Under the pieces are notes generated by a model. It worked only from the letters and a program-made list of their open reading frames with translations. It was not told the origin of the DNA and did not search any database. Shown here piece by piece: positions 1 to 19,752 of a stretch of 23,065 nt of DNA. Position 1 is the stretch's first letter; each line of letters begins with the position of its first letter. Source of the DNA: Promethearchaeota archaeon (GTDB lineage Archaea; Asgardarchaeota; Thorarchaeia; Thorarchaeales; Thorarchaeaceae); the NCBI GenBank assembly GCA_027031765.1, contig JALVPN010000216.1:1-23065 (forward strand). The letters are read 5' to 3'. The position numbers were made by a program, and so were the translations under genes.

Positions 1-2901
1 GTCCGTACCGTAGGTCTTTGTCTGCCCGAGAGGGTTGGCCACAGAGACCGGTCTCCAGTCGGTCACAGGGTAGTCCACCGTGACCGCCACCTGCTGCGAG
101 CCTGCGGGCGGTGACACCAGCACCTTGGCTGTCCAGTCCACAGTTGAGCTGCCGTTCGTGACGTAGAAAGTGGTGCCCTCTGCGAGGTCCTCATCGAGTG
201 TCGTACCAGACCCCCGGAAGTCCAGACCGGCACCAGCAACAATGTCCACCTGGCCCGAAGACGTCGTGGAGAAGAACAGCCGGACAGTGTCGGAGTCCCG
301 TGGTGTCTTCTCAGGACCGACAGAGTAGAATGATGACGGGTCCTCCTGGTTTGCAAACTCGGTGGCTATCCAGCCCGATGTCGTCTCAGTGTCGGCCACA
401 TGTACCTCGTCGATTATGCCCTCAAAGGCATACGAGCTTGTATAAGCACTCGCGCCTGTACGGATTGGCACCGACACGGAGTTTGAGATTGTGTGGTCAA
501 AGCTCTGCGAGGCCAGGAGCGAGCCGTTCAGGTAGAGGTAGAGGTTGGGCTGTGAGAACACAGCCACGATGTGCTGCCAGTGGCCAGCTGCAATCCCATG
601 TTTCGACTTTGACACGTACAGTGAGTACTTGTTCGAGCCATCGTAGATACTGACCTCAAGATAGGCGTTCCAGAACCTCAATACGTAGCCTGTCCACTGT
701 GGGCCGTTGTGGTGGGACACGATATTGTACTCCCCTGATGAGAGCACGGAGGACGGTACGTTGACCCAGGCGCTGATCGTGAAGTCAGTGGTCATATCAA
801 AGTCCGGGTGGTCAGGGACAGTGACCCCTTGACTCAGCGAACTGTTGAACTGGTACGCGTTGACAATCATGCCGGACACGAGGTCGCTGGAGTCCATGTT
901 GCCAAGGGTCGTACCATCATGCGAGTGCGAGGAACTGTCGTGGACCGTGTCAGTGGGGTCTTCGTCGAGGTGCTGCACCAGGACATAGTTCGAGGTCCAC
1001 GGAGAGCTGGTATAGGTCCGACGGGCATCTGGGTTGCCGTAGTGCATCGTAATGACTGTGTCTGTTGTGCTGGAGAGTGCGGGCACACGTACCCAAGCGA
1101 TGAGGTGTGCGTGGGTCGCGTTGTAGTCCTGGTCGAACAGCTCGAGTTCCCAGTCGAGGGGTGTGCCGTCCACTGTGAAGGCAATGTCCTCACCATCGGC
1201 CTGCACATCCGTCCTCAGGTCGGTGTCATACAGGTCGATGAGTACCGGAAAATCTGTCAGGTCGGCGGACACCTTGGTGTGGTCGACTGTGATGTCCTTG
1301 CTGTACTGGAGTGCTGGGACAGTGTTGCTGTCCTGTGGCACGAGGTACTCGACATGGAGGCGTGCAAGGTCATCCTGGGCATATGTCGTGGAGGCGGAGC
1401 CCTTGATATGGTCGAGGGACTTGTATGAGGAGGCATACATGAACTGGAACATGATGCAGACATAGTTGCCAGTCGACCAGTCGGTACGTGAAACGACCTT
1501 CTGGAGGAGCGCCGCGAAGTCAGGGGAGGAGTGCCTGCTGTCAGTACTCCAAGAGCTTGGTTGCCAGTTGACACTTGTGTCAACCCACGTGTAGCGGTCT
1601 GGCAGGGTAGGCAGTCCGGAGGTGAACGACGACACATTGCTGACATATGCAACATGTATACGGATCCCGGCAATGCTGGTGTACCCCGCTGACTCCACAT
1701 CGATGTATGCGGAGGTGATGGCAGCACCCTGCGGGACCATCAGCTGGAACTGAAAGCCGGTCTGGTAGGCCTGGGCCGTGGACCAGCCACTGTTGCTCCA
1801 CACGCCTACATCAAGCACACTGTCATTGTCCTTGCCATCCAGGTCGACCCCCGACGGTGGGTACGAGGTGCAGTCGCGGTTGGAGTCGTCCGGTACATAG
1901 GGCGAGACCGAACCCGGGAGGGCGCCAATCACCTCAGTGCCGTTGGCCCTCAGGCCGACCTGTTCGGGGAAGGGGACGACAGTCAGTTCGAGCTCGATGT
2001 TGTCAACATACACGTATGCGCCGCGGTAGGAGGACTGGATGCCTGACAGGTCAGTTGCAAGTCCGATATCGAGGAGGAGCGCGTCCGGGTACGAAAAGGT
2101 GTCCAAGGCCGAGGACGGTACTGTGACGGATGCCTGCAACCATGTGTTTGTGACGTCGTCCGACTCGAACACGTGGAGCTTGGACTCGCTGCCAGCAAAC
2201 CGGACGAAAAGGTGCACCTGGTCGTCCATCGACGAGGACGAGGAAACATAGTACCGGAACCGGACCGTGGCGGCTGTGACATCACGCCATGGCGCGCTGA
2301 CCATCTGACTGAGATAGACCTCGTCAGACGCCGTCAGGTTGGTGTCACTGGACCATGCAGCATCGAACCGCCACCCATGGGTCCCACCGTACCCGCCCGA
2401 GCCATCGTTGAGCTCGAAGACACCATGGTGTGGATGTGGGTTCCGTCCCGTGCTAGAACCGTCCTCGCTCTTGACGAGGGTCCAATAGTCAGGCACTGCA
2501 ACATTCTCGGAGTTGTAGGTCGGGTCGACGAGGAACTTCTCATTGTGATAGCTGTTGAGGAACCCGTTCAACAGCGCATCAGTGACTGTCATCGTCAGCT
2601 GGTCCACCTGCGCTTCAAGACCGGTGACCGTCCAGTCTGACGGAGTGTCCACGGCCACGTAGTCCGTTGTACTGGAGTCCAGCGTCAGGCCAACAGAGTC
2701 GTTTGTGACGACCCCGCTCACTGTTGTCGGCAACCCACTACCGCGGCCCGTAATGTCGCCACCAGAGTCGGCGAGCGTCGTCTGCCGCCCGTCCTCAGGG
2801 CTATTGGAGGCCGGCGTAGCGGGGCCGGCAGGCAGCATGGGACTGCCAAGTGGTACTGTGAATGCGAGAATCAGAACAACAACATACATTCTACGATCCA
2901 A
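1..2901 (-). CDS. Large secreted/surface glycoprotein with DNRLRE/CBM96-like region, DUF2341 domain and LamG/ConA-like domain (runs off the window start; at least 967 codons)
   Basis: Absent from the ORF track because there is no stop codon in the window. I translated it by hand and it is open from 2901 to base 1. TTG start at 2901 follows GAGGAGG (alternative ATG at 2889). Signal-peptide-like N-terminus MDRRMYVVVLILAFTVPLG. VPQGAAITSAYI...SPDFAALLQKVVSRTDWSTGN (about 1350-1790). DUF2341-like YSKDITVDHTKVSADLTDFPVLIDL...ADGEDIAF...AWVRVPALSSTTDTVITMHYGNP (about 1020-1305). LamG-like FTISAWV...WQHIVAVF...LYLNG...FEGIIDEVHV (about 350-790). At least nine N-x-S/T sequons. Confidence 0.9.
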   Translation of the reverse strand, partial: MDRRMYVVVLILAFTVPLGSPMLPAGPATPASNSPEDGRQTTLADSGGDITGRGSGLPTTVSGVVTNDSVGLTLDSSTTDYVAVDTPSDWTVTGLEAQVDQLTMTVTDALLNGFLNSYHNEKFLVDPTYNSENVAVPDYWTLVKSEDGSSTGRNPHPHHGVFELNDGSGGYGGTHGWRFDAAWSSDTNLTASDEVYLSQMVSAPWRDVTAATVRFRYYVSSSSSMDDQVHLFVRFAGSESKLHVFESDDVTNTWLQASVTVPSSALDTFSYPDALLLDIGLATDLSGIQSSYRGAYVYVDNIELELTVVPFPEQVGLRANGTEVIGALPGSVSPYVPDDSNRDCTSYPPSGVDLDGKDNDSVLDVGVWSNSGWSTAQAYQTGFQFQLMVPQGAAITSAYIDVESAGYTSIAGIRIHVAYVSNVSSFTSGLPTLPDRYTWVDTSVNWQPSSWSTDSRHSSPDFAALLQKVVSRTDWSTGNYVCIMFQFMYASSYKSLDHIKGSASTTYAQDDLARLHVEYLVPQDSNTVPALQYSKDITVDHTKVSADLTDFPVLIDLYDTDLRTDVQADGEDIAFTVDGTPLDWELELFDQDYNATHAHLIAWVRVPALSSTTDTVITMHYGNPDARRTYTSSPWTSNYVLVQHLDEDPTDTVHDSSSHSHDGTTLGNMDSSDLVSGMIVNAYQFNSSLSQGVTVPDHPDFDMTTDFTISAWVNVPSSVLSSGEYNIVSHHNGPQWTGYVLRFWNAYLEVSIYDGSNKYSLYVSKSKHGIAAGHWQHIVAVFSQPNLYLYLNGSLLASQSFDHTISNSVSVPIRTGASAYTSSYAFEGIIDEVHVADTETTSGWIATEFANQEDPSSFYSVGPEKTPRDSDTVRLFFSTTSSGQVDIVAGAGLDFRGSGTTLDEDLAEGTTFYVTNGSSTVDWTAKVLVSPPAGSQQVAVTVDYPVTDWRPVSVANPLGQTKTYGTD

Positions 2902-13409: not shown

Positions 13410-14522
13410 ATGCCAAAAGGGGTCTTCATAGCGCACTGGGACGACTTCAGGGGACTGGTGGTGGAACACAAGTATCCGACAAGCATAATGCTTACCGAAA
13501 AGGACCTGAACATGGTCTACTACCACCACGAGAAGGGGCGCACGGGGTCACTCCAGTACGTTGAACTTGAGAACATGAGGGTCGCGTCACTCGCAAGCAG
13601 TGGCAGACCACTATGGATTGTTGTCTTCGTCCTCGACGAGGGAGAGGAGATAGAGGGGCAGGAGGACGTACTGTTGGGTATGGGCCGTTATGTCCTGGCA
13701 ATGCTTGCGCAGCACCCCGAAGGTGTCGATGTCAAGGATGTGCTGGAGAACCAGCGCATGCTACACCGTCCCACACCCGAGCAGGAGTATGCAGACATAT
13801 TTCTCACGCCCTCATCGGCGCTGCTCCTCGAACGCATGGAACAGGAAGGCATTGACCGTGCTACGCGGCTGGCCGTGTGGCTGAATACCCAGGTACAGAG
13901 CGAGGAGATAGACATCAGAGCCGTGGCTGCCCCCCTGATGAAGTCAGGAGTGGTCAGGGTGGAGAAGGTCCAAGGTGCAGGCGAAACAGTCTTCCTCGTA
14001 CGTGATGTGTTCGCCTACAGGGCCCCCCCAGTCCAAGCACTGCAGTACGCACTAGAAACGATGGTACACATTGCGGAAGTATACCAGGACAGGGTCACCG
14101 AGTTCTTCTCTCCGCCGCCACCGGAGAAGGGCTACAACCCGACTGCTGCCACCGACGACCCGAACTCACCGCTCCTCGAGGACCGCCAGAGGATAGCCGA
14201 GATCCTGCGGAATGGCATCCATTATGAAGTGGTGAGGTGCCTCCGGGAACGACCGATGACCTTGGCGGAGATAAGTCAGGCCACCACCTTCCCGGTGGAG
14301 TTAGTGCAAAAGGTGCTCTGGGCCCTAGAGGCTGAGAAGGTCACGACGCACGTGGATGGTGGCAGTCTATGGGTACTGCTCACTGACCCCACTATTGAAG
14401 CGTTCATGCCCGAGTTCGTATTGCCAGATGTTTTCAGGAAAATGAAGGACAGAGAGCTGGATGCCAAGGTCGTGATGAGATACCTTGAGCTACTCGATGA
14501 AGAATGGGGGAGAGCTGAGTGA
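13410..14522 (+). CDS. Longin (uDENN/NPRL2-like) domain protein with two winged-helix-like domains, 370 aa
   Basis: N-terminal VFIAHWDDFRGLVVEHKYP fits the uDENN/NPRL2 start pattern and the beta-beta-alpha-beta-beta-beta-alpha-alpha longin layout. wHTH-like segments: LLLERMEQEG...APLMKSGVVRVEK...VFLV and HYEVVRCLRERPMTLAEISQAT...VQKVLWALEAEKV...WVL. Confidence 0.8.
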   Translation: MPKGVFIAHWDDFRGLVVEHKYPTSIMLTEKDLNMVYYHHEKGRTGSLQYVELENMRVASLASSGRPLWIVVFVLDEGEEIEGQEDVLLGMGRYVLAMLAQHPEGVDVKDVLENQRMLHRPTPEQEYADIFLTPSSALLLERMEQEGIDRATRLAVWLNTQVQSEEIDIRAVAAPLMKSGVVRVEKVQGAGETVFLVRDVFAYRAPPVQALQYALETMVHIAEVYQDRVTEFFSPPPPEKGYNPTAATDDPNSPLLEDRQRIAEILRNGIHYEVVRCLRERPMTLAEISQATTFPVELVQKVLWALEAEKVTTHVDGGSLWVLLTDPTIEAFMPEFVLPDVFRKMKDRELDAKVVMRYLELLDEEWGRAE

Positions 14523-15376
14523 TACGGAACGTCTGCATCCTTGGAGAGCTCGGCAATGTCGTCTATATGAAGGAGTACGCCGAGAGCCAGACAAAGGACA
14601 GGCTCCTTGATTTTCTCGTGAACCTGTCGCAGTTCATCAGTAATGAGGAGTTTGATGGCAAGACCGAACACATGAACCTGCCGAGCACAAGGATATACTA
14701 TACCAAGCGGGACTCGTTCACCTTTGTATTCGTCGCCGACAGGGCCGACGACCCCGCACAGATCGAAGAGAAGACCGAGCAGCTCGTGGAGAGGTTCATG
14801 AAGGACTATGCCAACCTCGCACTTGCATCCCAGCCGCTGGACGGGTTCGACGAGGTCGTCGACGAGATTGCAGTGACAATGGTGAAGGTCGCCATCCTGG
14901 GTTTCGCTGGTGTTGGCAAGACCACAACACTGCACCTCCTCCGTGGCGAGACCCTCCCACTTGTCCATGACCCCACGATTGGTGTCAGCATCAAGAAACT
15001 ACCCACCGAGGTCGAGAACGCGAACATCGTGCTGTGGGACCTTGCCGGCCAGTCGAGGTTCTCAATCCTGTGGGCCAAGATGATAGCCAACGCCCAGGTC
15101 GTGATAATCGTCACGGACAGCACCCTTGAGAACGTGCTGAGGAGCAAGAAGCTCGTGACACTGGTCAGAGAGGAGGTGCCGGATGCCAAGATAATCGGCA
15201 TCGCCAACAAGCAGGACCTCGCAACAGCACTCACGCCCGAGCGGGTGGGCCAGATCCTCGGGATACCCACCTACGAGCTCGTAGCAATCGACATCTCATA
15301 CAGGGACAGGCTCATCCAGATAATAAGACGGGCAATCCTTGAAGGGAAGAGCGAGTCCAAGGACAGGGTGTCATAG
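14519..15376 (+). CDS. Longin domain fused to Arf-related small GTPase, 285 aa
   Basis: N-terminal longin (IRNVCIL..GNVVYMKEY...RIYYTKRDSFTFVFVAD..D...ERFMKDY). G1 GFAGVGKTT, switch I DPTIG, G3 WDLAGQ, F..LW, G4 ANKQDL. GTG start overlaps the upstream stop (GTGA) and has GGGGGAG upstream. Confidence 0.93.
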   Translation: MIRNVCILGELGNVVYMKEYAESQTKDRLLDFLVNLSQFISNEEFDGKTEHMNLPSTRIYYTKRDSFTFVFVADRADDPAQIEEKTEQLVERFMKDYANLALASQPLDGFDEVVDEIAVTMVKVAILGFAGVGKTTTLHLLRGETLPLVHDPTIGVSIKKLPTEVENANIVLWDLAGQSRFSILWAKMIANAQVVIIVTDSTLENVLRSKKLVTLVREEVPDAKIIGIANKQDLATALTPERVGQILGIPTYELVAIDISYRDRLIQIIRRAILEGKSESKDRVS

Positions 15377-15519
15377 CGGGCCCACACCCCACTCACTCCA
15401 CAGAACATGTCGTGTCAGATGGGGCGGCAGGGTGGCTGGGGACACACATCGTCTCGGGAGTGGCACGGGGCCCCACCGTGCGACCTCCAAGCACCGAGAA
15501 ACACTCAGGATGTCACGGC

Positions 15520-15531
15520 AAAGGTTAAGAA
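15520..15531 (+). promoter_or_regulatory. BRE/TATA (AAAGG-TTAAGAA) for 15588 gene
   Basis: Purine-rich element plus TTAAGAA about 57 nt upstream of ATG 15588, which has AAGGTGTGA 6 nt upstream. Confidence 0.55.
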
Positions 15532-15587
15532 CGACTCGCAGGATGTATCAGTGCCAGAACGGGACACTTGACAAGGTGTGACAAGAC

Positions 15588-16178
15588 ATGTCCTTTGATA
15601 TTAACGAAATCCTCCAGAAACTGCAAGAGATCCAGAGTTTTGCGAACAAGGTTGCTGAAACAAAGAGACTTGCAGACCAGCTTGCTGAGAACTTTGCGAA
15701 GATGAAAGTGGCGATCAATGAGACCATCAACAGGAGCTTCGCCGAGATAGCAGACCAGATAGACACGCTGCGCAAGAACATGGAGTTGATGGAGAGCGTA
15801 CAGTCATCGTCATCATCGCCCTCGAGCAGTACCACGCCGCCGCCAGCACCACCCGAACCAGAACCAAAACCGGAGGCCCCAGCGCCGCCAACGCCACCAC
15901 CAGCGCCGCCAACGCCACCACCAGCGCCGCCACCAGCACCACCCGAACCAGAGGTGTCAGCCCCGCCGACGGTGAGTGAGAGCGCCCCGGTGGCCGAGGA
16001 AGCAGGTGACGAGCTCGAGTTCCTCAACCAGCAGAAGGACCGGCTGAAGGCGGAGCTCACAGACCTGAGGTTCGACTACATGCGTGGGTACATCCCGGAG
16101 GAGCAGTACAAGGCCAGAGAGGCCGAGCTCGACGCAAAGCTGAAGGAGATTGAGAAGAAGATCAGTGCACTGCGTTGA
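15588..16178 (+). CDS. Coiled-coil / Ser-Pro-rich linker / C-terminal SHOCT- or steadiness-box-like helical protein, 196 aa
   Basis: Heptad-like N-terminal 70 aa; a linker of PPPAPPEPEPKPEAPAPPTPPPAPPTPPPAPPPAPP; C-terminal LKAELTDLRFDYMRGYIPEEQYKAREAELDAKL. SD-like motif and TATA box present. Confidence 0.88.
   Translation: MSFDINEILQKLQEIQSFANKVAETKRLADQLAENFAKMKVAINETINRSFAEIADQIDTLRKNMELMESVQSSSSSPSSSTTPPPAPPEPEPKPEAPAPPTPPPAPPTPPPAPPPAPPEPEVSAPPTVSESAPVAEEAGDELEFLNQQKDRLKAELTDLRFDYMRGYIPEEQYKAREAELDAKLKEIEKKISALR
15843..15952 (+). repeat. Intragenic coding repeats
   Basis: 21-bp unit CCAGCGCCGCCAACGCCACCA at 15879-15899 and 15900-15920, with a partial third copy at 15921-15932. It is flanked by a 20-bp direct repeat CCAGCACCACCCGAACCAGA at 15843-15862 and 15933-15952. 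Confidence 0.9.
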
Positions 16179-16631: not shown

Positions 16632-17498
16632 TCAGCTCCTCTGTTCAAGGAGTTCCTGTGCAAGTGCCACCAGCCGCCTGGCACGTTCCTCGGAGACCCC
16701 GGACACCTTCTCTGCAACTGTTTCGGGCTTGGCACGTGCGAGCTTTGCAACGGTAGCGTACCCTGCGTCAGAGAGCTTCTTCTTGAGTGCGGGGCCCACA
16801 CCCGCAATCTCGCTGACATCAATCCTCGGGGCCCTCTTCTTGGTCGTCTTCTTGGCCTGAGCAGGGGGTGCTGATGGCGCCTCTGCCGGAGGAGCACTCT
16901 TCTTGGCGGGACGCGCAGGCCGTGCTGGTGCCTTCCTGGCCCCGGCCTTCGGCGCCCCTCTCTTCTTTTTCTCCTCCTTGGGTTCTTCCTCTTCTTCTCC
17001 TTCAATAGGTTCGACAACGACCTGTGGCCTGCGGTCGCGGCTCCGCTCTTTCCGGGCCCCCAGCTCACGCCTGTGACGGACAATCCTGCTGGGCTTCATG
17101 GCCGTCATGCTCGCGGCTTCCATCAGTGCCGCATCAATCTCGTCCGTTATCACGGGCCGTTCTGGGACGGACGACGCAATCTCTTTGAGGACATCAGAAA
17201 TCATGACGGGGCGGTCGGTCTGGCGTCGCTCCAGCTCAGCCGGGGTCGTGTACGCGACAAACTTGGCCTCCCGGATGTAGGGTACGACAACACCCTCAGA
17301 CTCCTTCTCACGCAGATAGCGCCGTGCCACGCTCAGCCTGATGTTGAACCGCTTGGCGAGGTCATAGTGTGTGACTGAGCGTGCCCGCTTCAGGTACGCG
17401 TCGACCTCCCCTTGGACATCCGGCCTGAGGACTGCGTCACGTACTATTTTCTCTCTTTTCGCCGCAGACTTGCCCCATTTCTTCCGGCTGATTGTCAT
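16632..17498 (-). CDS. rps25e: 30S ribosomal protein eS25 with long K/A/P/E-rich extension and C-terminal helix-hairpin-helix domain, 288 aa
   Basis: RKKWGK motif and winged helix VTHYDLAKRFNIRLSVARRYLREKESEGVV...VAYT match eS25. The last 62 aa (DVSEIAGVGPALKKKLSDAGYATVAKLARA...VSGVSEERARRLVALA) form a tandem HhH. ATG at 17498 has AGGAG upstream. Confidence 0.9.
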   Translation of the reverse strand: MTISRKKWGKSAAKREKIVRDAVLRPDVQGEVDAYLKRARSVTHYDLAKRFNIRLSVARRYLREKESEGVVVPYIREAKFVAYTTPAELERRQTDRPVMISDVLKEIASSVPERPVITDEIDAALMEAASMTAMKPSRIVRHRRELGARKERSRDRRPQVVVEPIEGEEEEEPKEEKKKRGAPKAGARKAPARPARPAKKSAPPAEAPSAPPAQAKKTTKKRAPRIDVSEIAGVGPALKKKLSDAGYATVAKLARAKPETVAEKVSGVSEERARRLVALAQELLEQRS

Positions 17499-17547
17499 TA
17501 CTCTCCTGTAAATGGGTTGGAGTCTTCGAGAATGCACCGGGTTCCGC

Positions 17548-17555
17548 TTTTAAAG
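17548..17555 (-). promoter_or_regulatory. TATA box of rps25e (CTTTAAAA)
   Basis: Near-consensus archaeal TATA box about 50 nt upstream of the ATG. Confidence 0.65.
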
Positions 17556-17660: not shown

Positions 17661-18950
17661 TCAGGAAGAGGCTGTGCCCTTCGGCTCGACGATGAGCTTC
17701 TGACTGGCCCGGACGGAGCTATGAGGTGGGATGTCATGCTCTACAATGCAGCCGGCAGAAATTGTGGAGTCCTCGCCAATCCGGACTCCCGGGAACACCG
17801 AGACATTCACACCAATCACGACGTTGTCACCAATTACTGCACCGAACTTTCGCAGGGGAATCCTCACGCGCTCTTCCCCGTAGTGGATGTAGAACGGGCT
17901 ACCATCGGGCCGCCAGTTCCAGAGCTGGGCACCGGCCTCGATGCAGGTATTGGCACCGACAATGGAGTCTGCAATAAAGGTCATCCGACCGATGTTGACG
18001 TTCTGGAACACCATGCTGTCCCTGACCTCAACAGCGTAGCCTATGTGGACGCCCTCGCTCAGGCTGGTGTACTGACGGATCAGGGAGTTGTTGCCGACAT
18101 AGACGTCCTTGCCGACGTACACAGGGCCACTGAGGGTCACACCAGGGCGGATGACAGCCCCGTCCTCGATGTAGACGGGCCCCTCAAGGACGACGTTCTT
18201 GGACAGTTCCGCCGACTCTGCAATGAACGAGCCACGGCCCCTGAGCAGCCGGTCAAGGATGATGCGGTTGGCGTGCAGGACGTCCCATGGCCATGTGAAC
18301 TCTGCCCATTCCTTCTCCCAGACAGTAGCAGACACTTTCAGGCCCGCAGAGATCGCGGCCTCGACCGCGGCCTCCATCGTCCTGTGCTCCTCAAGCACAT
18401 CCAGCATGGAAGTGTTGAAGACCGACACACCTGCAACGGCATAGTTGCTGACGTAGCGGTCAGGGCCACCCTTTTCCACGAGGCGCTCAACAGTACCATC
18501 AGGTTTCATACGGACGGTCCCGAACTGCTCGGGGTTTGACACCAGTGTAACAAGCATCGTCACATGCGAGTCCATGGTAGCATGGTTGGTGAGGGTGCGT
18601 GCGACCATCTCGGGCTCCACGAGGACATCGCCGTTCACGAGGAGGAACTCCTCTTCCCCCTCGAGCTCCTCGCGGGCTGTCAGGATTGCATGTTCTACAC
18701 CCTTCTGTTCATGCTGGATGACATAACGTATCCGGACACCCATTTCGCCACCGTGTTCAAAGTAGTCCATGATCTCCTCGCGGCCGTGCCCTGCCACGAC
18801 CACTATGTCACGCACGTTGTTCTCACGCAGGCTCTCGATTATGTACTCGAGTACAGGACGACCAGCAATCATGAGCATGGACTTGGAACGGTCTGCAGTG
18901 AGCGGCCGGAGCCGCTTCCCAACACCGGCAGTAAGTACGAGGGCTCTCAT
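17661..18950 (-). CDS. Sugar-1-phosphate nucleotidylyltransferase with left-handed beta-helix domain (archaeal GlmU-like), 429 aa
   Basis: LTAGVGKRLRPLT..SKSML.IAGRP, LVNGD, WPWDVL, hexapeptide repeats, KFGAVIGDNV. The acetyltransferase-site residues appear substituted (see findings). Confidence 0.9.
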   Translation of the reverse strand: MRALVLTAGVGKRLRPLTADRSKSMLMIAGRPVLEYIIESLRENNVRDIVVVAGHGREEIMDYFEHGGEMGVRIRYVIQHEQKGVEHAILTAREELEGEEEFLLVNGDVLVEPEMVARTLTNHATMDSHVTMLVTLVSNPEQFGTVRMKPDGTVERLVEKGGPDRYVSNYAVAGVSVFNTSMLDVLEEHRTMEAAVEAAISAGLKVSATVWEKEWAEFTWPWDVLHANRIILDRLLRGRGSFIAESAELSKNVVLEGPVYIEDGAVIRPGVTLSGPVYVGKDVYVGNNSLIRQYTSLSEGVHIGYAVEVRDSMVFQNVNIGRMTFIADSIVGANTCIEAGAQLWNWRPDGSPFYIHYGEERVRIPLRKFGAVIGDNVVIGVNVSVFPGVRIGEDSTISAGCIVEHDIPPHSSVRASQKLIVEPKGTASS

Positions 18951-19017
18951 CAGGACTCACAGTCAGTGGGGACAGGTTGCTGATAAAGGTGTGTCTAATG
19001 GCGCCCACGCCCCGGGA

Positions 19018-19752
19018 CTAGCGTGGTGGGTCGAGAGTGAAGTAAATCCTCCGCTTGCCAGCACCGACGTTCTTGGTCTTGCCAATCCGTATCGTGCCAA
19101 TCTCGCGCGTGTTGCGCACATGTGTGCCAGCACATGACGCGGCATCGTAGTCCCCGATGAGTACGACACGGAACTCAGACACAGACTTGGGCACCATCTC
19201 AAGGTAACGCGTCTGATACCCCTTCTCTTTGAGGAATGCAATCGCCTCTTCACGGGGCATGAAACGGATCTCCACATCGAGGCCCCGGAGGAGTATCTCG
19301 TTGACGCCCTCCTCGACCGAGCGCTTCATGTCCTCGTCAAAGTGTTCCAGTGGCGAGTAGTCGGCACGGCTGCGGTCGGGCTTAATCATGTTGCCCACGG
19401 TCTCGAGGCCGTAGTTCAGCTGCAGGTACCGGGACAGGACGTGCTGAGCAGTGTGGAACCGCATACAGGGGTAGCGCCACTCCCAGTCAACGGCCCCACG
19501 TACAGATGCGCCGGTCGTGAATGGGACACCACCTTCAATGACATGGACGGCCGTGCCCTTCTCCTTCCGGGTCGTCGTGACCGTCGCTCTGTGTACGCCA
19601 TCTGTCAGGGTGCCACGGTCCCCACTCTGACCACCACCTTCAGGGTAGAATGCGGTCTGGTCGAGGACCACACCGTCATCCCGCACCTCGATGACAGTGG
19701 CATCGAACTCCCGGACATAGTTGTCATGCATGTGGAGCAACCGCGTCGTCAT
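19018..19752 (-). CDS. alaXM: Alanyl-tRNA editing protein AlaX (AlaXp-M type), 244 aa
   Basis: LDQTAFYPEGGGQSGDRG; zinc-binding HTAQH (HxxxH) and CAGTH (CxxxH); AGGAGGT SD-like motif. Confidence 0.95.
   Translation of the reverse strand: MTTRLLHMHDNYVREFDATVIEVRDDGVVLDQTAFYPEGGGQSGDRGTLTDGVHRATVTTTRKEKGTAVHVIEGGVPFTTGASVRGAVDWEWRYPCMRFHTAQHVLSRYLQLNYGLETVGNMIKPDRSRADYSPLEHFDEDMKRSVEEGVNEILLRGLDVEIRFMPREEAIAFLKEKGYQTRYLEMVPKSVSEFRVVLIGDYDAASCAGTHVRNTREIGTIRIGKTKNVGAGKRRIYFTLDPPR

What the first reader, a model, noticed from the sequence alone, without database searches (positions are those of the whole stretch)
16632..17498. Ribosomal protein eS25 fused to a histone-H1-like linker and a tandem HhH domain
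Seen: about 85 aa of eS25, about 140 aa of linker (helical part, EEEEE, then K/A/P-rich KKRGAPKAGARKAPARPARPAKK), and a 62-aa HhH domain (16635-16820), all in one frame. Established: eS25 is normally about 100-125 aa, sits on the small-subunit head near the E site, and is needed for some IRES and shunting events. HhH-type appendages occur on a few other ribosomal proteins, such as haloarchaeal eL32 and some bacterial bL21. Inference: a tethered nucleic-acid-binding domain near the mRNA exit could couple the ribosome to mRNA, RNA polymerase or the nucleoid.
Basis: partly seen in the sequence, partly recalled or inferred. Interest (0 to 1): 0.65.

Follow-up and report, generated by a model that had tools for sequence, protein, structure and literature searches.

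The report
Thorarchaeal eS25 with modular C-terminal arm
In one family of Asgard archaea (Thorarchaeota), the small ribosomal protein eS25 has a new conserved 73-residue extension and a floppy, positively charged tail, and in about a third of species it ends in a nucleic-acid-binding module that these cells also attach to other ribosomal and DNA-handling proteins; it probably acts as a loose tether, and I found no paper that describes it.

Summary
The fusion is real: one open frame (16632-17498, minus strand) with eS25 (Pfam E 2.5e-9) and a RadA-NTD-like (HhH)2 module (E 2.2e-10). A re-assembled contig from the probable source sample spans it without differences, and orthologues are syntenic. 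It is the genome's only eS25.

The 'linker' is two things. Residues 93-165 are a conserved helical extension, found in 49 of 59 family genomes and 0 of 191 other Asgard genomes, always on eS25. Residues 166-224 are a variable Lys/Ala/Pro tail.

The HhH is optional (15 of 41 complete family genes, 1-2 copies) and is not of single origin (AU p 0.0007). The same module sits on eL32, eL13, Top6A, Rpo6, a HEAT protein and a transporter. Species without it have longer, more basic tails.

Best reading (0.5): a ribosome-anchored, non-specific nucleic-acid tether, with HhH and long tail interchangeable. Specific coupling to RNA polymerase is unsupported. The true start is probably a non-AUG codon (ATC 17492); 36 of 49 orthologous loci have ATC/ATT there.

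No paper found. This scan noted the Lys tail and odd start on other genomes, and HhH on Top6A, eL13 and the transporter here. New variant of a known kind.

The parts
17548..17554 (-). TATA-like box (TTTAAAA), probable own promoter of the eS25 gene
   Evidence: Seen in the sequence; by eye only, conservation not tested
17501..17507 (-). Shine-Dalgarno-like AGGAGAG
   Evidence: A GGAG motif stands at this place in nearly all 49 orthologous loci
17490..17492 (-). Probable true start codon ATC (giving M-S-R-K-K-W-G); the ATG at 17498-17496 is the alternative
   Evidence: This position is ATC/ATT in 36 and ATG/GTG/TTG in 11 of 49 loci, three of them just after an in-frame stop; 27 loci have no canonical start within 14 codons. 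Control: uS13 22/22 and eL32 11/11 canonical; SD spacing of eL32 (about 13 nt) fits ATC (14), not ATG (8)
17223..17498 (-). eS25 core, aa 1-92 (KKWG motif plus winged helix), net charge +11
   Evidence: PF03297 aa 5-84; PDB eS25 matches by sequence and fold; only eS25 in the genome
17004..17222 (-). Family-specific conserved extension, aa 93-165: two acidic amphipathic helices (100-110, 119-130), a basic helix (136-153, KPS...RR motif) and a PE-V-x-VEP strand-like motif
   Evidence: Mean modal residue frequency 0.73 against 0.79 for the core; 49/59 family genomes, 0/191 others; among 1.84 billion representatives only this family's eS25 and one chance hit; helices
16827..17003 (-). Acidic run plus disordered Lys/Ala/Pro-rich (histone-H1-like) tail, aa 166-224
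   Evidence: aa 176-224: 71% K+A+P, net +14; pLDDT under 50; 23-163 aa in orthologues
16635..16826 (-). RadA/Rad51-NTD-like (HhH)2 module, aa 225-288, first hairpin AGVGP, second SGVSE, net +3
   Evidence: PF14520; profile matches RadA/Rad51 NTD (E 1e-15), Topo V, haloarchaeal eL32 NTD (E 1e-11), NusA C-terminal repeat (E 5e-5)
16632..16634 (-). Stop codon TGA

Best explanation
This is the genuine ribosomal eS25 of a Thorarchaeota family, carrying a three-tier arm. (1) The core binds the 30S head as eS25 does elsewhere (inferred from homology and single copy). (2) The conserved extension, acquired by the family's ancestor, probably folds onto the ribosome, its basic helix on rRNA and its acidic helices on a protein, and fixes where the arm leaves the head (inferred; partner unknown). 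(3) A disordered basic tail, optionally capped by one or two (HhH)2 modules, gives weak, sequence-independent binding to nearby nucleic acid (mRNA, rRNA of neighbouring ribosomes or chromosomal DNA). The HhH cap and a longer Lys tail are interchangeable ways to do this, and the cap is drawn repeatedly from a pool of modules that the lineage also puts on eL32, eL13, Top6A and Rpo6. Shown: the anatomy, distribution, several origins, and the trade-off with tail length. Not shown: ribosome incorporation, any binding, the target.
For: Single copy and syntenic: nucleotidyltransferase neighbour in 44, coiled-coil gene in 42 and Arf-like GTPase in 40 of about 49 loci. Extension nearly as conserved as the core, always fused to eS25, with a conserved acidic (median -7) then basic (median +7) layout. 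The Gly-hydrophobic-Gly hairpin is kept in all 21 eS25 modules; this loop mediates nucleic-acid binding in (HhH)2 proteins (10.1101/2020.01.18.911073). Tails without HhH are longer and more basic: median 118 aa, net +31 against 63 aa, net +8; genus-level p 0.007 and 0.03. eL32 shows the same alternation, HhH in 20 of 25 examined and Lys tail only in 5. Most other carriers act on nucleic acids.
Against: The modules are not clearly basic: net charge -5 to +4 on eS25, mean -3.7 on Rpo6. The second hairpin is degenerate in many. The module also sits on a transporter and a HEAT protein with no obvious need for nucleic acid. The tail comparison uses related genera and overstates significance. No RNA or protein data show expression of the full length. 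G004 has lost much of the extension.
Confidence: 0.5

Rival explanations
1. The HhH module is a protein-protein tag, like the NusA C-terminal acidic repeats. Shared modules on eS25, eL32, eL13, Rpo6 and Top6A would let ribosomes, RNA polymerase and topoisomerase VI bind each other or a common partner, giving a lineage-specific transcription-translation hub.
For: The profile matches the NusA C-terminal repeat (E 5e-5). Modules on eS25 and eL32 are neutral on average and those on Rpo6 acidic. Both ribosomal subunits, RNA polymerase and Topo VI carry it.
Against: RadA-NTD matches are ten orders of magnitude stronger. The eS25 copy is absent from 26 of 41 genes and is replaced by a featureless Lys tail. 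Modules are exchanged between host proteins, which fits a generic role. From my own knowledge, coupled RNA polymerase sits at the mRNA entry side, while eS25 is on the E-site side.
Confidence: 0.2
2. The HhH cap (and much of the tail) is nearly neutral: a small stable module that spreads by in-frame duplication and gene conversion onto tolerant, solvent-exposed protein ends in lineages with a genome-wide HhH expansion. Only the conserved extension has a function.
For: Genomes with eS25-HhH hold 13-27 HHH_5 matches (median 18.5) against 9-13 (median 11) in those without, own copies included. Copy numbers rise together: G012 has 2 on eS25, 3 on eL32 and 7 on Top6A. One clade of eS25 modules is rejected (p-AU 0.0007); in genus g7 the eS25 pair groups with the same genus's eL32 pair (97/91). 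G206 lacks it inside an HhH-bearing genus.
Against: The hairpin glycines and hydrophobic core are kept in every copy. The cap persists across whole genera. The inverse relation with tail length suggests a conserved need.
Confidence: 0.22
3. The protein works mainly off the ribosome, as a chromatin or transcription protein: a winged helix, an H1-like tail and an HhH are all DNA-binding parts.
For: The winged helix also matches transcription regulators at Z 8-9. A source names relatives 'histone H1/5'. Extra-ribosomal roles are known for ribosomal proteins in general (own knowledge).
Against: It is the only eS25 in the genome, keeps the KKWG motif, and its top fold matches are eS25 chains. TACK and Asgard eS25 is a ribosomal component in Saccharolobus (PMC11698992).
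Confidence: 0.07
4. Misassembly or a missed stop joined eS25 to an unrelated HhH gene.
For: None beyond the low-complexity tail, which is gap-prone in some relatives.
Against: One contig with no differences spans the gene; the same in-frame architecture stands in 14 other genomes of 7 other genera and in NCBI and JGI proteins.
Confidence: 0.01

Closest known systems
Archaeal/eukaryotic eS25 (PF03297; S. solfataricus 9fhl_c, P. calidifontis 9e7f_BW, human, yeast)
   Same: KKW motif and winged-helix core, single copy, rmsd 1.1-1.7 A to solved eS25 chains.
   Different: About 200 extra C-terminal residues; most other Asgard eS25 frames are 85-140 aa. It lacks the long N-terminal tail with two glycines that contacts uS13 in S. 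solfataricus (PMC11698992). Mostly non-AUG start.
Haloarchaeal eL32 with N-terminal HhH (Haloarcula 1jj2_X, 1s72_Y; 9l94_Q) and bacterial bL21/uS2 with C-terminal linker plus HhH (PRK12278, PRK12311)
   Same: Ribosomal protein, flexible charged linker and the same RadA-NTD-like module.
   Different: Other host protein and subunit position; here the module is optional, in 1-2 copies, and is preceded by a conserved new extension. I found no functional study of these precedents.
RadA/Rad51 N-terminal (HhH)2 domain (1pzn, 1t4g) and Topo V HhH repeats
   Same: Best sequence matches of the module (E 1e-15 to 1e-12), Gly-hydrophobic-Gly hairpin.
   Different: RadA modules form their own clade (99/95) apart from the eS25 ones; no ATPase; nearer relatives are on eL32, Top6A and HEAT proteins.
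Histone-H1-like tails on insect ribosomal proteins (mosquito RPS6, RpL23a; PMC548281, PMC11764897)
   Same: Lys/Ala/Pro low-complexity tail on a ribosomal protein, arisen by convergence.
   Different: Archaeal, on eS25, and alternating with a folded HhH cap.

Membership tests
Ribosomal protein eS25 | Winged-helix core matching PF03297 above the curated cut-off | tested here: met
   37.7 bits against 28.8; below the NCBIfam equivalog cut-offs built on Crenarchaeota, 40.3 against 83
Ribosomal protein eS25 | Fold closest to solved eS25 chains | tested here: met
   Top 25 Foldseek rows and top 7 VIA-align rows are ribosomal eS25 chains
Ribosomal protein eS25 | Sole, orthologous copy in the genome | tested here: met
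   One match in G000 (95% complete) and conserved neighbours
Ribosomal protein eS25 | N-terminal Gly-Gly tail that contacts uS13 (TACK type) | tested here: not met
   The protein begins at S-R-K-K-W-G; other Asgard eS25 also lack it, so this marks the TACK subtype, not the family
Ribosomal protein eS25 | Incorporation into the 30S head | not testable with these tools
   Needs ribosome proteomics or cryo-EM
RadA-NTD-like (HhH)2 module (HHH_5) | PF14520 match and helical (HhH)2 fold | tested here: met
   41.3 bits against 27; pLDDT 74-93, helices 236-287; profile to RadA NTD E 1e-15
RadA-NTD-like (HhH)2 module (HHH_5) | Gly-hydrophobic-Gly hairpin in both motifs | tested here: inconclusive
   First hairpin complete in 21/21; second complete in some, G-V-S here
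RadA-NTD-like (HhH)2 module (HHH_5) | Sequence-independent DNA/RNA binding | not testable with these tools
   Charge is near neutral; needs a binding assay
Linker histone H1 | H1 globular domain homology | tested here: not met
   No linker-histone family in the Pfam scan of this protein; the likeness is composition only

The most novel reading that the evidence does not exclude
Thorarchaeota use a shuffled (HhH)2 module as a common address tag on both ribosomal subunits (eS25, eL32, eL13), RNA polymerase (Rpo6), topoisomerase VI and a membrane transporter, gathering the expression machinery on the nucleoid or in a condensate. The eS25 gene, with its conserved new extension and its AUC/AUU start, would be a regulated part of that hub. 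This would bear on how Asgard cells arrange DNA and ribosomes.
Probability: 0.15. Interest if true: 0.8.

Novelty: new variant of a known kind. Interest (0 to 1): 0.45.

Why it matters
It gives a clean family-level change in an Asgard ribosome: a conserved extension on eS25, a protein tied to non-standard initiation in eukaryotes. It also makes a testable prediction of extra density on the 30S head. These genes are often annotated as hypothetical, HhH or histone H1 proteins, and the published archaeal eS25 alignment of PMC11698992 holds no row named Thorarchaeota although its eS26 and eS30 alignments do. More broadly, HhH caps on eL13, eL32 and eS25 show a recurring Asgard habit of arming the ribosome surface. 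That bears on the open question of DNA-ribosome separation seen in Loki- and Heimdallarchaeota cells (PMC8776820). The HhH fusion by itself is less surprising than first thought, because the module is common and optional.

Tried and rejected
Complex prediction of the extension (aa 90-168) with uS7, uS13 and uS9: no answer, score 0.00, no evidence either way.

Relatives of the extension: no Pfam family, no PDB sequence match under E 0.4, no usable ESM Atlas hit, no longer fusion form found (weak). The extension was not folded and searched alone, so a structural relative is not excluded.

Idea that the extension is the TACK N-terminal tail moved to the C-terminus: hhalign probability 0.1%, rejected as unsupported.

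Single origin of the eS25 HhH: rejected on the module tree (p-AU 0.0007; only 62 columns, LG+G4) and weakly on the host tree (5 changes, p-AU 0.027). Gain and loss cannot be told apart without a root.

Expression: no RNA holder listed. The sigma-70 promoter scan does not apply to archaea. Rpo6 was not found in this assembly, so its HhH is known only from relatives, and those 16 loci were picked through their HhH hit.

Literature: nine searches found no description. Melnikov et al. 2018 was not held, and most subscription papers are not searched.

Full report
Observation. The minus strand holds one open frame from ATG 17498 to TGA 16632, 288 aa. Pfam finds Ribosomal_S25 at aa 5-84 and HHH_5 at aa 227-278, both above their cut-offs. 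The structure model shows the eS25 winged helix, three further helices (100-110, 119-130, 136-154; pLDDT about 70-86), a disordered stretch (165-222) and a folded C-terminal domain. The best fold matches of the N-terminal part are eS25 chains. A 1944-nt contig from the probable source run covers the gene with no differences. The organism is a Thorarchaeota member, judged from the source names of all close homologues; the DNA is held by a hydrothermal vent metagenome.

Distribution. It is the only eS25 in a 95% complete genome, and its neighbours are conserved. In the genome's family, listed eS25 frames are 212-414 aa unless cut by a contig end. In other Asgard families most are 85-140 aa, the few longer ones from upstream sequence. 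The one genome of the sister family has core plus Lys tail, 179 aa, without the conserved segment. So a basic tail may predate the extension (inference from one genome).

The 'linker'. Residues 93-165 are nearly as conserved as the core (mean modal frequency 0.73 against 0.79; 0.80 for aa 135-165). A profile of this segment hits 49 of 59 family genomes and none of 191 other Asgard genomes. Most family misses also lack an eS25 match; G004 has a decayed version. Among 1.84 billion representatives it finds 18 proteins that are eS25 of this type or fragments of it, and one chance hit. It has an acidic half and a basic helix. Short helices with moderate confidence and low pTM (0.55) look like a ribosomal extension that folds on its partner; this is inference.

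The HhH cap. It is present in 15 of 41 complete family genes (8 genera; 1 or 2 copies) and absent in 26. One of the 15 is read across an assembly gap, and four of the 26 contain N runs. It is closest to the RadA/Rad51 N-terminal domain, Topo V repeats and haloarchaeal eL32. In this genome the same module sits on Top6A (two copies), eL32, eL13 (degenerate), RadA, a transporter and DUF4332-like proteins. In relatives it is also on Rpo6 and a HEAT-repeat protein. eL13 with linker and HhH was found in 26 of 30 Asgard loci fetched. On a tree of modules, Rpo6 and RadA copies each form one group, but eS25 copies scatter, and holding them together is rejected (p-AU 0.0007). In genus g7 the two eS25 modules group with the two eL32 modules of the same genus. 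The module here is closest to this genome's own Top6A modules (50-52%). Repeated copying or gene conversion between genes is the simplest account, with the caveat of a 62-column alignment. Genomes with the cap have more HhH modules overall.

Tail and cap trade off. Tails are 63 aa with net +8 (medians) when capped, and 118 aa with net +31 when not (genera are related, so the p-values overstate). eL32 alternates in the same way. This is the main support for a generic nucleic-acid tether. Against it, the modules are near neutral.

Start codon. Earlier scan notes flagged missing start codons in other genomes, so I tested this. At the codon before S-R-K-K-W-G, 36 of 49 loci have ATC or ATT and 11 have ATG, GTG or TTG; 27 have no canonical in-frame start within 14 codons. 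uS13 (22/22) and eL32 (11/11) use canonical starts, and eL32's Shine-Dalgarno spacing fits ATC 17492 rather than ATG 17498. A gene-specific weak start suggests translational control, as known for bacterial infC (own knowledge); this is not shown here.

Mechanism. Most likely (0.5): the core and extension anchor on the 30S head, and tail or tail plus HhH binds nearby nucleic acid weakly and without sequence preference. Rivals: near-neutral spread of the module (0.22), protein-interaction tag (0.2), off-ribosome role (0.07), artefact (0.01). The eS25 core sits on top of the head near the E site, and the exit channel is held by eS26 (PMC11698992; PMC9932298), which this genome encodes. Nothing here singles out RNA polymerase.

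Comparison and novelty. Ribosomal proteins with an HhH appendage exist in solved-structure sequences (haloarchaeal eL32) and in NCBIfam models (bL21, uS2). H1-like tails are described for insect ribosomal proteins (PMC548281, PMC11764897). The eS25 form stands in public annotations under other names, but I found no paper on it. Verdict: real, new variant of a known kind, interest 0.45. The value lies more in the conserved extension, the module shuffling and the non-AUG start than in the HhH fusion itself.

Noticed in passing
L166-L195; G000:C41:22602-23129: eL13 carries a Lys-rich linker and one or two C-terminal HhH modules in 26 of 30 Asgard loci from many families; degenerate in this genome.
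   Followed up: partly
L095, L146-L165: RNA polymerase subunit Rpo6 (RpoK) of this family has an N-terminal, acidic HhH module; the 16 copies form one clade (100/98), so one old gain.
   Followed up: partly
L103:870-3731; L126-L140: Topoisomerase VI subunit A has 2 to 7 N-terminal HhH modules; eL32 has 0 to 4 (L096). Copy numbers rise together in some genera.
   Followed up: partly
L123:59-808: In another Asgard family (f19) eL32 has an acidic HhH module at the C-terminus instead of the N-terminus.
   Followed up: no
L093, L094, L097, L150, L155, L162, L163: A small HhH plus HEAT-repeat protein of about 210-250 aa occurs in genomes with many HhH modules; its module is often nearest to eL32 or eS25 modules of the same genome.
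   Followed up: no
window 13410-16178: Conserved convergent neighbours: a 370-aa winged-helix protein, an Arf/Roc-like GTPase and a coiled-coil/Pro-rich protein with weak GvpG and CdvA hits; linked to eS25 in about 40 loci.
   Followed up: partly
window 17661-19752: Upstream on the same strand: sugar-phosphate nucleotidyltransferase with hexapeptide repeats (beside eS25 in 44 loci) and an AlaX-like tRNA editing protein.
   Followed up: no
L022:2-637 (G004): One 97% complete genome has an eS25 in which the second half of the conserved extension is replaced by Lys repeats.
   Followed up: no
window 1-2901: Large open frame (over 960 aa) with a weak TafC fimbrial-protein match at aa 673-847.
   Followed up: no
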